From contig CM074525.1 of the NCBI GenBank assembly GCA_037379345.1, forward strand, positions 24,979,840-25,043,839: a stretch of 64,000 nt of DNA. Reading direction: 5' to 3'. The DNA comes from Perna viridis (taxonomy: Eukaryota). Positions 3,470 to 10,700 of the stretch are shown in pieces. The stretch's first letter is position 1. Each line of letters starts with the position of its first letter. Made by a program: the position numbers.

Positions 3470-4666
3470 GTCTTATTTTATTATTATTATTTTTTTATAA
3501 ATTTGTATTGTTTTGTTGTTGTTGGTGTTGACGTAATGGAGCTTTGTTGTTTTCTTCCTTATAGTCGCCAGACACATTGAAAAAAAGTTGTATATATTAT
3601 ATCATAGTTCAAGTTTCAAATCAAAGCCGTTTCTGTACTATTCAGTGTGCAAAGAACCAAGTTTACACAGTGGTGAAAGACGGACAACATTCATTTTTTT
3701 CTTGTACACGAAAACACATTTTATGATTTTCTGAAAAAGGAGGGGGTTTGATTGGTCAAAATAAGACCCCACTCCAGTGAACGGATTCGCCAAAAACCCT
3801 TTTCTGACTGGTTAAATTGTTAATGCTTCCTTTTTTTTATTTTGTTTTTGTTTTTGTTTTTGTTTGTTTGTTTGTTTGTTTTGTTTTTGGTGTTCTATAT
3901 TTTCAAAATCTACTTTATACAGCCTCGTTACATATTGGTGTCAGCTAGGGTATTCGGGGTCAAGGTTCCCACTATCCTTCTCTCGGATCATAACAATGAC
4001 CTACTGATTTCACTCAATTATTCGATACAATGTCTTCTCTTTATGTAATTCCTGGGTAAATATTATGGAGAAAACCCGGTTAGTATCTGATATGGGGGTC
4101 AAGGCCGCTTGTTTTATCGGGTATAAAGAGCCAAAATCTGAATGCCTGATCAGAAATCGATATTTAATGTACAACCTTTCGTTCATCATGTACATTTCAC
4201 GTTTTGAAGGAATTTTAGGATATTTTCTATTGCTTTGTGCAAGTCTAAGCCTGGCTAGTAAGTTCGTAAAATATTACACAATTTTTGAATAGAAAGCCAG
4301 ACAAGAACATGCATATAAGACTATATCAAACAAAAGTCGTACTTTTCATGATCATCAAATGATACATATTGTTTTGTTCATTTTTTTATTCTGGTGCTGT
4401 TTTTTTTGGGGGGTTTTTTTGGTGTTTTTTTTTTATTATTTTTTGTGGTTTTTTTTTGGGGGGTGTGTGTTTAAAAGTTATTACACCGTTTCATTCCTGG
4501 AACCGTTATCTTATGTGATTCTTGATTATATTTTGCCGACAGCGAAACTGATTTTTTTTTATGTCAGAAAATTAAACTGAGGGTGAGTTTGTTTTGAAAA
4601 CAGGAAGCCAATGGACGCAGACGAGTGAAAAAAACCGTGGGCGATACATTAGAATAATTAATGTAA

Positions 4667-4759
<93 letters not shown>

Positions 4760-7700: not shown

Positions 7701-10700
7701 AAATCAATGAACAAATGCAGTGACGGCGGTGTATATCTACATGTACCTATTTTGTATTTTTCAGGTTGACTCGTGTTTGATGAGCTGTGATCAGACCGAA
7801 AATGACTGCTCCGTTGTCTGTCTTGTAATTGCATGTATCTGTTTCATCGTCTTTGTAGGTTTTATGAATTTGTTTGACCTCTTTGTAACGTTTGTCAGTC
7901 TTGTAATTTTATGTGAGACCATAGTGATATATGATTTTGTTGTTAACGTTATTCCTCGTTCATCGCAACGTTATATTTCTTTTTTTTAATTTATAAATTT
8001 TATCAGACATGTTACGTTTTTAATCACGTGCCCATTATGGAAAATAAAGAGTCAAAACTTTGTTGGGGGCAGAGACTGTAACAACAAATAAAATATAACA
8101 CATTCAAGGAAAAATGCTTACTCTTTGGGCCTAAGATGTCGGTGTGCTCCCCAGTATTACGATTTCAGTGTGCACCCCAGTTTTAAGATTTCAGTGTGCT
8201 CCCTTGGCTGTGGATGTTGGTGTGCTCCGTGGTATTAAGATATCGGTGTGCTCCCTTGGCTCCTCTGGTTTAATTTGGTGTGCTCCCCAGGTTTAAGTTG
8301 TCGATGGATTCCCTTGGCTGTGGATGTTGGTATACACCCTGGGTTTATGATGTCAGTGTGCTCCTTTGGCTGAAGTTGTTGGTGTGCTTCCAGTTGGGTG
8401 ATTTGCTCCCTTGACTGTGGAAGTTGATGTGTTCTCTGGGTTTAAAAGGTTGGTGAGCTCCTTATGCTGTGGATGTTGGTATGCTCACTGGGTTTGTAAG
8501 ATGTCAGTATCCTCCATATGCTGTAGATGTTGGTGTAATCCCTAGGTTTAAGATGTCGGTGTGCTCCCTTGGCTGTGGATGTTGGTGTGCTCCCCATGTT
8601 TAAGATGTCGGTGTGCTCCCTTGGCTGTGGATGTTGGTGTGCTCCCCATGTTTAAGATGTCGGTGTACTCCCTTGCCTGTGGATGTTGGTGTGCTCCCCA
8701 TGTTTAAGTTGACGGTGTGTTCAATCGGCTGTGGATGTTGGTGTGCTCCCTGGTTTAAGATGTCGGTGTCCTCCCTATGCTGTGGATTTTTGTGTGATCC
8801 CTGGGTTTATTGATGTCTGTGTGCTACATCGGTTTTAAGGATCTCTGTGCTCCATTGGATTTAGATGAAGCTGTGTACCCCGGGGTTTTGAGAACTCAGT
8901 GCTGACTGCATAGGGATTCATATGACGGTGTGCTATCTAGATTTTTAAATGATGGGATCTTCACCATGCATTAGATTGTCCACTGTCTATTTTTTGTATG
9001 TTTTCTTTTAGTTTTTGTATGTTGCTTATTGTATCTATCCAGTTTGTATTTACTTTCATTTTCGTATTTTATAATCCTTCAACCGTGAATTTCGGGAGAA
9101 ATTCCTTCATCTGTGACTTTGGGAGAATCATTTCGTGAAAAATTCATATTTATAGATGGATTGTTTGTGCCAAATACATATTTTAGTGGCATAATTTACC
9201 CACATATATTTCTTTCATCGATTTCTAAGTGTATACCTACACTTAGAAATCGATGGTAAAGGAAAACTATTGACCAAACTTTACGACAAACGCGATGACT
9301 GCATTCCAAATTGTCAACTTTCCTTTCATCTGCGGCAACATCCCTTCAGCACCTGCGTATGGAGTGTTCATATCACAACTGATACGTTATGCCAGAGCTT
9401 GCCGAAACTACGCAGACTTTTTGTATCGCGCTAGAACTCTAACAAATAGGCTTCTGGAACAGGTTATGTTGCTACAAGATTGAAGTCATCACTACAGAAG
9501 TTTTATGGTCGTCATCATGAACTCGTGGATCGTTATGGTGTATCCATCTGCACCATGAAAACTGATTTATTCAACGGGTCATAGTTTTCCTTTCCCCGTT
9601 TATCTACCCCGGACTTGACTTTTTATGAGCAACTCGGCAGGTGTTTCTAGAAAAGCAGAGGACGCTTACCCTACCGGTGCACCTGGTCCATGCTCCCAGT
9701 TTTTAGTGGAGTCCGAGTTGCTCATTTGCTTTTGTTACTTTTTTTTGTATGTATGATTTTATTTACTTCATATTCTTTGTTGTGTATGTCTGTTTTGCAT
9801 GTCTGGTCTTTGTCCCTGGATTACATTCTTTTGATTACTTGATTACTCTTTCAATTGCTCCAGTATAGAAAATTTCTTTGCAACAGACGATATATGTTCG
9901 TGATTCAATTAATATATACGTAGAACATGGTAAGTTGTGGGCAAGAAATTATCCTCTAACAGAGGCGGATAAAAATTGAAGAACTGAAGAGTGTGTTGAC
10001 TAGCCAAAGATGGGACGTACATTGTCAGGCTTCAGTGGTTTTCTTTTTCGACTAACATTTTTCCGAGAAAAAAAAACGGGGAGGGTCTGTGGGGCCGGGT
10101 CGGGATCTCTCTTTGTCTATCTGAATCTTATAGGTGAAATCAAACGCCGAGTCTACTGACGAGTTACAAGTATCAGATCTTAAATGTAATGGTTCGTGTG
10201 TTCTAGTACATCAGTAAATATTTAAATATTTTTGTGCATTGCTCTTGAAAAAAGCAAATCAAATTGTAAACATTGGAAACCTTTTGAAATTAAACACTGT
10301 GTATTTTACAACTGACGTCCCAGTATCAGGAAGAAGGAAGAGAAGTAAAAAATATCAGTTCATATTTTCTTTTACTTTAAGTGTCGATTACACATCTTTA
10401 TCCTACTTCATTTTTAAAAGCTGGCTCAAGCAAATGCTTAATTTAATGTGCAAATGGGTTCATCCTTTAGAGGAACAAACGTAAGGGCGGCTAAAAAGGG
10501 CGCTAAATTGACACAAACGGATATTTTTCCATTAATATCCTCGGTTTTAGACAAAATGGAATATTAAAGTGTTAATTAACAGGAAACCCTTGGACAGAAC
10601 ATATTGTTGGGGACACCTTTAAGATAGGAAACTAATGTTAACTTGTGTTTCGTTGGTTAAAGAGGTAATTATTTCTTTTCAGTATAACATTATGAATAAA

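What the first reader, a model, noticed from the sequence alone, without database searches (positions are those of the whole stretch)
4188..7769. Orphan secreted precursor with a prohormone-like two-chain layout (CxxxC ... KR ... acidic spacer ... CxxxC ... Gly-stop)
Seen: four phase-compatible exons after a TATA box give a 152-aa protein. It has a signal peptide, an N-terminal segment with LVQCLRNCQ, a dibasic KR site, an Asn/Glu/Ser-rich spacer, a C-terminal NWYCHNNCW and a final Gly. Established: KR is the prohormone-convertase site, a terminal Gly is the substrate for PAM amidation, and paired CxxxC motifs staple antiparallel helices. Inference: removing the spacer could leave a disulfide-linked two-chain peptide, with insulin-like logic but a different Cys pattern. 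I do not recognise it as a named mollusc neuropeptide. The ORF track misses this gene structure.
Basis: partly seen in the sequence, partly recalled or inferred. Interest (0 to 1): 0.7.

Follow-up and report, generated by a model that had tools for sequence, protein, structure and literature searches.

The report
Probable orphan secreted twin-CxxxC protein gene
This is probably a real, small, lineage-restricted gene for a secreted acidic protein with a Cys-x-x-x-Cys motif near each end, but nothing here shows that it is a two-chain amidated hormone.

Summary
A TATAAA box is followed by four exons, all joined in phase 1, giving 152 codons: 4188-4257, 6554-6586, 6861-7211 and 7765-7769. The model has a signal-peptide-like first exon, LVQCLRNCQ, one KR, a Ser/Asn/Asp-rich middle, NWYCHNNCW, and Gly-stop.

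The long ORF alone is not beyond chance: 24% of shuffles reach 151 codons. The ensemble is:
- It contains the only signal-like ATG...GTRAGT first exon in 64 kb.
- Exon 2 is the only frame-keeping cassette in intron 1.
- Exon 3 has coding-type codon-position make-up, which begins at the acceptor.

I rate a real gene for a secreted protein at about 0.75.

The hormone reading is not shown:
- KR is the only dibasic site, and Leu follows it.
- A second cut would need the monobasic KSSR.
- The terminal Gly depends on an unverified 5-nt last exon; unspliced, the frame ends ...SVAVGMF*.
- Pfam, PDB sequences, the ESM Atlas, bacterial and archaeal genomes and paper searches found no relative.
- The AF2 model is unusable (pLDDT 37.7).

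Homologues, expression and prior annotation therefore stay unchecked. The joined protein was never built or searched.

The parts
4122..4127 (+). TATAAA box, 61 nt before the ATG at 4188; a TCAGAAA initiator-like site lies about 30 nt downstream of it
   Evidence: sequence read directly
4188..4257 (+). Exon 1: ATG (A at -3) plus 23 codons MYISRFEGILGYFLLLCASLSLA plus 1 nt. It is signal-peptide-like (hydrophobic core, S-L-A before the exon end). Donor GTAAGT at 4258. An in-frame ATG at 4167 would add 7 residues.
6554..6586 (+). Exon 2: 33-nt phase 1-1 cassette, (K)VIKTPSESWK. Acceptor T11CAG, donor GTAAGT. Skipping it keeps the frame (AAT = N at the junction).
6861..7211 (+). Exon 3: 2 nt + 116 codons + 1 nt, the body of the protein. 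Acceptor CACATTTTCAG, donor G|GTATGT.
6884..6910 (+). LVQCLRNCQ, the N-terminal CxxxC (Cys 11 and 15 of the exon-3 translation)
6941..6946 (+). KR, the only dibasic site; followed by Leu-Leu
6947..7162 (+). 72-residue middle rich in S (11), N (8) and D (7). The translation after KR to the end of exon 3 has net charge -6.
7079..7090 (+). KSSR, the only candidate for a second (monobasic, Lys at -4) cut. It overlaps a donor-like CAC|GTGAGT at 7089, also phase 1.
7163..7189 (+). NWYCHNNCW, the C-terminal CxxxC (Cys 104 and 108)
7212..7764 (+). Putative intron 3. If retained, the frame ends GMF* at 7220-7222, with AATAAA at 7574. Holds a 47-nt-arm palindrome at 7331-7431.
7765..7769 (+). Coding part of putative exon 4: GT completes GGT (Gly), then TGA. 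Acceptor TATTTTGTATTTTTCAG. AATAAA at 8043 and 8087.

Best explanation
This is a lineage-restricted, three- or four-exon gene for a small secreted, acidic protein that is probably largely disordered (exon-3 part: pI 5.0).

Shown: the exons, their phases and signals, the motifs, and coding-type composition.

Inferred:
- Exon 1 is a cleaved signal peptide.
- In the secretory pathway the four remaining Cys form two disulfides joining the N-terminal CxxxC segment to the C-terminal one. The pairing would be C1-C4 and C2-C3, as in CS-alpha/alpha and alpha-hairpinin peptides. This closes a loop of about 88 residues rich in Ser, Asn, Asp and Glu.
- A furin- or PC-type convertase may cut at KR. The product would be a disulfide-linked two-chain form in which the loop stays on the C chain unless KSSR is also cut.

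Whether it signals (hormone or neuropeptide) or has another extracellular role is open. I rate a non-hormonal or unknown secreted role as more likely than the two-chain amidated hormone.
For: - The motifs and exon borders were read directly.
- It holds the only signal-like ATG..GTRAGT first exon in the window, with TATAAA upstream. Shuffles give 0.32 per window, or 0.06 with TATAAA.
- Exon 2 is the only in-frame phase 1-1 cassette in intron 1. The window-wide rate predicts 0.06 per 2.5 kb.
- Exon 3 has G1 0.33, R1 0.66 and GC1 > GC2 > GC3. All three thirds of the exon are alike in this, and 3 of 205 ORFs reach both values.
- The amino-acid-composition score steps from -0.207 before the acceptor to +0.042 after it. 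The exon value is reached by 10 of 205 ORFs.
- GC is 0.386 in exon 3 against 0.296 and 0.288 in introns 1 and 2.
- The exons are single-copy in the window and not part of a repeat.
- A twin CxxxC from 4 randomly placed Cys arises in 169 of 200000 trials.
- The CxxxC...CxxxC staple with C1-C4 and C2-C3 pairing is documented for plant alpha-hairpinins, scorpion kappa-hefutoxins and cone-snail flf14/vil14 peptides (PMC7191063, passages read).
Against: - ORF length alone is within chance: 24% of shuffles reach 151 codons.
- My signal rules are crude and were written after seeing the sequence. With loose rules the window yields up to 45 hits.
- There is no RNA evidence and no homologue in anything searchable here.
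- The Atlas recognition score of 1435 is in the range of shuffled proteins.
- The AF2 model is unusable, and in it the C-terminal motif sits in strands rather than a helix.
- Known CS-alpha/alpha peptides are 22-27 residues with a short loop (PMC7191063), not about 88.
- Translations of non-coding ORFs in this window carry 0.16 CxxxC per 116 aa, and 4 of 205 hold two or more.
Confidence: 0.6

Rival explanations
1. One reading: a prohormone whose spacer is excised, leaving a disulfide-linked two-chain peptide with an amidated ...SVAV-NH2 end, in the manner of insulin but with a different Cys pattern.
For: - It has a signal-like exon 1, a KR, an acidic middle, a CxxxC near each end, and Gly-stop if exon 4 is used.
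- KSSR could serve as a monobasic site with Lys at -4. The rule for such sites is recalled from Veenstra 2000 and was not read here.
- Bivalves carry many lineage-specific neuropeptide precursors, some with Cys-rich parts (PMC8398477 section 24; PMC5996578 passages).
Against: - There is only one dibasic site, and Leu follows it, which by the recalled Veenstra rule makes cleavage ambiguous.
- The Gly-stop rests on one unverified splice. The unspliced end is GMF*.
- There are no repeated peptide copies, no homologue and no expression data.
- The AF2 model is unusable.
Confidence: 0.12
2. Not a gene: a chance open frame in AT-rich, repeat-rich DNA, joined by a reader to chance splice-like signals.
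For: - An ORF of >=151 codons arises in 24% of shuffles.
- The window has 22 stop-free frames >=110 aa, most of them plainly non-coding.
- GTAAGT occurs 18 times on the + strand.
- No family, structure or relative was found.
- The neighbourhood is satellites and repeat fragments.
Against: Several independent signals coincide:
- the only signal-like first exon in the window, with TATAAA upstream;
- the only in-frame cassette in intron 1;
- coding-type codon-position make-up that starts at the acceptor and holds through all thirds of exon 3;
- all junctions in phase 1.
Confidence: 0.2
3. A real gene with a different structure. Options are a single-exon 130-aa reading from the ATG inside the ORF (MNVMVLNTFSDDD...GMF*) with no signal peptide, a protein ending GMF* with intron 3 retained, exon 2 skipped, or the internal donor at 7089 used.
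For: - The in-frame Met codons lie upstream of the acceptor within ORF 6767-7222.
- The unspliced stop is at 7220-7222 with AATAAA at 7574.
- Exon 2 skipping keeps the frame.
- CAC|GTGAGT at 7089 is a consensus donor in phase 1.
Against: - Composition before the acceptor is non-coding-like: G1 0.16 and composition score -0.207.
- The last third of exon 3 is as coding-like as the rest.
- The phase-matched signal exon with TATAAA would then be a coincidence.
Confidence: 0.3

Closest known systems
CS-alpha/alpha peptides and alpha-hairpinins (plant EcAMP1, VhTI and BWI-2c; scorpion kappa-hefutoxins and OmTx; cone-snail flf14a-c and vil14a)
   Same: Four Cys arranged as C1-x3-C2 ... C3-x3-C4. In those peptides two antiparallel helices are tied C1-C4 and C2-C3 (PMC7191063, passages). 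The protein is also secreted, and one subgroup is molluscan.
   Different: Those animal toxins are 22-27 residues. In the plant structures quoted there, helices follow each other within a few residues. Here about 88 residues separate C2 and C3. There is no sequence match to any solved chain, and helices are not shown.
Insulin/relaxin-type prohormones
   Same: The order is signal peptide, Cys-bearing N segment, basic site, spacer, then Cys-bearing C segment. This is also the logic of a disulfide-linked two-chain product.
   Different: Molluscan insulin chains carry CxCCxxxCx8C and Cx(9-14)Cx11C (PMC5996578, passage). Here there are only two CxxxC motifs and one dibasic site, and there is no Pfam insulin match.
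Bivalve lineage-specific neuropeptide precursors (scallop Vamide, oyster GRWRN, GSWN and others)
   Same: They are small secreted precursors without wider homologues, some with Cys-rich N- and C-terminal parts or a C-terminal amidated Val (PMC8398477 section 24; PMC5996578).
   Different: The Vamide/GRWRN family shares the sequence GRWRN, and the GSWN family shares GSWN. Neither occurs in the three exon translations. The sequences themselves are in supplements that I could not open.
Small Tim proteins (twin Cx3C substrates of Mia40; recalled, not read here)
   Same: Twin Cx3C motif on two helices.
   Different: Those are intermembrane-space proteins without a signal peptide and with a short gap between the motifs. 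Pfam found no Tim family match. This comparison matters only for the single-exon rival.

Membership tests
CS-alpha/alpha / alpha-hairpinin | Cys motif XnC1X3C2XnC3X3C4Xn with no other Cys | tested here: met
   Cys at 11, 15, 104 and 108 of the exon-3 translation. The only other Cys lies in the signal-like exon 1.
CS-alpha/alpha / alpha-hairpinin | Compact helix-loop-helix with a short loop. Animal members are 22-27 aa. | tested here: not met
   88 residues lie between C2 and C3. The low-confidence AF2 model places the C-terminal motif in strands.
CS-alpha/alpha / alpha-hairpinin | Disulfides C1-C4 and C2-C3 | not testable with these tools
   Needs mass spectrometry or a structure.
Insulin superfamily | A-chain CC-x3-C-x8-C and B-chain C-x11-C pattern; Pfam Insulin domain | tested here: not met
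   Pfam gave 0 families for exon 3. The Cys pattern differs (against PMC5996578).
Insulin superfamily | Two processing sites flanking a C-peptide | tested here: inconclusive
   One KR plus one possible monobasic KSSR.
Neuropeptide/peptide-hormone precursor (generic) | Signal peptide | tested here: inconclusive
   A crude rule is met. No SignalP was available.
Neuropeptide/peptide-hormone precursor (generic) | Peptides flanked by basic cleavage sites; C-terminal Gly for amidation | tested here: inconclusive
   There is a single KR followed by Leu. The Gly-stop appears only in the spliced four-exon form.
Neuropeptide/peptide-hormone precursor (generic) | Expression in neurons or endocrine cells; mature peptides detected | not testable with these tools
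Scallop Vamide / oyster GRWRN precursor family | Conserved GRWRN sequence (PMC8398477 section 24) | tested here: not met
   GRWRN is absent from the translations of exons 1-3. The family's sequences are in closed supplements.

The most novel reading that the evidence does not exclude
The gene encodes a new class of molluscan two-chain signalling peptide. It would be a 'split' CS-alpha/alpha staple in which two CxxxC helices are made as one precursor, tied C1-C4 and C2-C3, and then freed from an excisable acidic linker by cuts at KR and KSSR, with a Val-amide C-terminus. This would be insulin's logic reached from an unrelated fold.
Probability: 0.06. Interest if true: 0.75.

Novelty: new member of a known kind. 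Interest (0 to 1): 0.3.

Why it matters
If real, this is one more taxon-restricted secreted protein, a kind that is common in invertebrate genomes and usually missed by ORF-based tracks. It would matter more only if the two CxxxC segments prove to be disulfide-linked across a cleaved linker. That would be a new architecture for a processed extracellular peptide and a candidate ligand to de-orphanise. As it stands, it is a well-formed gene prediction with an untested functional story.

Tried and rejected
- **Pfam on exon 3:** 0 families. On the whole stop-to-stop frame the only hit was Ribonucleas_3_3 at E 0.2, which is noise.
- **PDB sequence search:** 0 hits at E <= 10.
- **ESM Atlas:** best hits 0.85, 0.79 and 0.75, to unrelated clusters. 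These are below the tool's 0.9 lead level.
- **AF2, single sequence:** pLDDT 37.7 and pTM 0.25. I therefore ran no Foldseek search and left the second fold job unused.
- **Complex prediction:** exon-3 residues 1-30 against 87-116 gave no answer (score 0.02, mark 0.34). This is neither for nor against binding.
- **Bacterial and archaeal genomes:** 103 pattern matches, none confirmed by tblastn.
- **Paralogues in the window:** tblastn run exon by exon found only self-hits.
- **Internal duplication of the two CxxxC segments:** they share C-x-x-N-C-x-x-x-S-S, but 14531 of 100000 shuffles give as many identities, so I rejected it.
- **Motif strings in papers:** 0 of 4 terms and 0 of 6 terms found.
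- **Rfam on the window:** 0 matches.
- **Pfam on 111 window ORFs >=72 aa:** one LRRNT hit at 4.7e-5 that I could not place, and otherwise only weak matches (E 0.002-0.008).
- **Not used, irrelevant to a eukaryotic gene:** the phage, plasmid and E. coli collections.
- **Closed, so unchecked:** The search for homologous proteins, the search of protein representatives, metagenome and viral contigs, and paper supplements.
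Full report
**What is there**

The window is AT-rich (GC 0.31-0.41 per 2 kb), has no N, and is full of simple repeats and dispersed repeat fragments.

- TATAAA at 4122-4127.
- ATG at 4188, with A at -3. A second in-frame ATG lies at 4167.
- Exon 1, 4188-4257: MYISRFEGILGYFLLLCASLSLA plus 1 nt, donor GTAAGT.
- Exon 2, 6554-6586: 33 nt, acceptor T11CAG, donor GTAAGT.
- Exon 3, 6861-7211: 116 full codons, acceptor TTTTCAG, donor G|GTATGT.
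- Exon 4, 7765-7769: GT + TGA, after TATTTTGTATTTTTCAG.

The motifs lie at LVQCLRNCQ 6884-6910, KR 6941-6946 and NWYCHNNCW 7163-7189. The 72 residues between KR and NWYCHNNCW are led by S 11, N 8 and D 7. The joined protein was never assembled, searched or folded, so whole-precursor predictions such as SignalP-style scoring across the exon 1/2 junction were left out.

**Is it more than chance?**

The open frame alone is not. Frame 6767-7222 is 151 codons long, the second longest in the window. A frame that long arises somewhere in 24% of 200 block shuffles.

The combination of signals is beyond chance:

- **First exon.** I applied a crude rule: an ATG, 16-35 residues, an uncharged hydrophobic core, small residues before the end, and a GTRAGT donor in the open frame. 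It finds exactly one first exon in both strands of the 64 kb, this one, and it also has TATAAA 15-100 nt upstream. Shuffles give 0.32 such exons per window, or 0.06 with TATAAA. Loosening the rule raises the real-window count to 2, 3, 11 and 45 hits (both starts of this exon count from the second rule on), and none of the others has so clean a signal-like sequence.
- **Exon 2.** It is the only stop-free phase 1-1 cassette between a Y-rich YAG and a GTRAGT in 4300-6840. The same rule finds 3 in the whole window on both strands, or 0.06 per 2.5 kb.
- **Exon 3 composition.** It has the codon-position make-up of coding DNA: G at position 1 of 0.33 (the mean of 205 ORFs >=60 aa is 0.19), purine at position 1 of 0.66, and GC1 0.45 > GC2 0.39 > GC3 0.32. 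Only 3 of 205 ORFs reach both values. All three thirds of the exon share this make-up. The 32 codons of the same open frame before the acceptor do not (G1 0.16).
- **Amino-acid composition.** A composition score steps from -0.207 before the acceptor to +0.042 after it. The exon value is reached by 10 of 205 ORFs.
- **Copy number.** The exons are single-copy in the window.

The rules were written after I had seen the sequence, so these numbers are indicative. I put the chance of a real spliced gene at about 0.75-0.8.

**What remains model-dependent**

- Exon 2 can be skipped without changing the frame; the junction codon becomes AAT.
- Intron 3 may be retained. The frame then ends ...SVAVGMF* at 7220-7222, with AATAAA at 7574. 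The spliced form has AATAAA at 8043 and 8087.
- Of the two strong acceptors within 1 kb downstream, 7765 gives Gly-stop, while 7859 gives a 43-residue hydrophobic tail.
- A consensus donor, CAC|GTGAGT, lies inside exon 3 at 7089, also in phase 1.
- A single-exon reading from the internal Met codons (MNVMVLNTFSDDD...) has no signal peptide.

**What it is**

No search that was open to me found a relative:

- Pfam: 0 families for exon 3.
- PDB sequences: 0 hits at E <= 10.
- ESM Atlas: best hit 0.85 to an unrelated cluster, with a recognition value in the range of shuffled proteins.
- Bacterial and archaeal genomes: 103 pattern matches, none confirmed.
- No paralogue in the window.
- Motif strings in about 8.4 million papers and preprints: 0 hits.

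The AF2 single-sequence model has pLDDT 37.7 and cannot be used, so I made no structure search. Whether this gene is already annotated, or has orthologues, therefore stays unchecked.

**How it most likely works**

Shown: the exon structure, the motifs and the coding-type composition.

Inferred:
- Exon 1 is a signal peptide ending S-L-A exactly at a phase-1 intron.
- The mature protein is acidic (exon-3 part: net charge -5, pI 5.0) and low in hydrophobic residues, so it is probably largely disordered.
- Its four Cys form two CxxxC pairs, an arrangement that 4 randomly placed Cys give in only 169 of 200000 trials.

The documented use of C1x3C2...C3x3C4 is the CS-alpha/alpha or alpha-hairpinin staple. 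There, two antiparallel helices are tied C1-C4 and C2-C3, in plant defence peptides, scorpion kappa-hefutoxins and cone-snail flf14/vil14 peptides (PMC7191063, passages read). I therefore think the two ends of this protein are tied together, closing a loop of about 88 residues. A cut at KR would make a two-chain form.

This is function by analogy, not family membership. The known animal members are 22-27 residues long with a short loop, and the compact-hairpin criterion is not met here.

**The hormone reading**

Points for it:
- The layout fits a precursor.
- Bivalves carry many lineage-specific neuropeptide precursors, some with Cys-rich N- and C-terminal parts (PMC8398477 section 24, read in full; PMC5996578, passages).

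Points against it:
- KR is the only dibasic site, and Leu follows it. By Veenstra's rules for invertebrate precursors (recalled, not read here) that makes cleavage ambiguous.
- The spacer can be excised only if the monobasic KSSR is also used.
- The amidation Gly needs the unverified last splice.
- There are no repeated peptide copies.
- The scallop Vamide and oyster GRWRN family is defined by GRWRN, which is absent here. Its sequences sit in supplements that I could not open.

General convertase specificity (KR or RR, single Arg, and the furin site RxxR) is as stated in PMC3061863 (passage). I give the two-chain amidated hormone about 0.1.

**Surroundings**

No neighbouring gene was recognised.

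- Of 111 window ORFs >=72 aa, one has an LRRNT match at 4.7e-5, which I could not place. The rest are weak matches (E 0.002-0.008).
- A 52-bp satellite starts 360 nt after the putative stop.
- Intron 1 holds an (AT)44 run and a dispersed repeat with three other copies in the window.
- Rfam finds nothing in the window.

**Verdict**

This is a well-formed prediction of an orphan secreted twin-CxxxC protein. The kind is ordinary (a taxon-restricted secreted protein) and the function is untested. Interest is modest unless RNA and peptide data bear out the two-chain reading.

Noticed in passing
window 8132-8825: Tandem satellite with a 52-bp unit (13.3 copies, 74% matches; 26-bp sub-period) starting about 360 nt after the putative stop codon. 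It raises local GC to 0.41.
   Followed up: partly
window 7331-7431: Near-perfect palindrome (47-nt arms, 85% complementary, 7-nt loop) inside putative intron 3, MITE-like. It accounts for part of the 140-aa minus-strand ORF 7324-7746, which has no Pfam match.
   Followed up: partly
window 5925-6030: By eye, an inverted repeat (GAGCATGC...TATACACTTCC / GGAAGTGTATA...GCATGCTC) in intron 1, another hairpin-forming insert. The repeat tool's top-25 list was filled by the AT run, so it was not listed.
   Followed up: no
window 4762-4837; copies at 9659-9720, 2565-2634 (-), 19334-19394: Dispersed repeat of 60-70 nt at 80-89% identity. Its translations (...LPVFSGVRVAHLLLLLFF...) recur at 9690, 19365 and 34833 (-).
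   Followed up: partly
window 9195-9431 (+), 18881-19258 (+), about 2980 (-): ORF fragments sharing ...DGKGKLLTKL(Y/H)...(D)KR(D/R)DF..IVNF.FICGNIPSA.., apparently copies of one repeated coding element. No Pfam match.
   Followed up: no
window 25328-25666 (+): 113-aa open frame with the best protein-like composition score in the window and coding-type codon make-up (G1 0.31). It is Gly/Tyr/Asn/Ser-rich (GGYNSGGGG repeats) with a weak Pfam GRP match (E 0.02, below cut-off). It is possibly an exon of a glycine-rich secreted protein.
   Followed up: partly
window 46622-46831, 47355-47543, 58359-58568 (+): Short open frames with coding-type codon-position make-up (G1 0.33-0.37) and no Pfam match. 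They may be exons of an unrecognised + strand gene. GC skew is strongly positive at 48-50 kb.
   Followed up: no
window 49598-49822 (+/-) and 56303-56690 (+/-): Tandem coding-looking repeats (ELKGDDMVSR x5; FTITEKSVESPNFI x6) open on both strands, probably minisatellites rather than genes.
   Followed up: no
window, location not determined: One of 111 ORFs >=72 aa matched Pfam LRRNT at E 4.7e-5. The batch output does not say which, and two regex scans and two 10-ORF Pfam calls did not find it.
   Followed up: partly
window 12840-13861 (-): The longest open frame of the window (184 aa) and its 122-aa neighbour look like remnants of a retroelement ORF by eye, but neither has a Pfam match at E <= 0.1 apart from noise.
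   Followed up: partly
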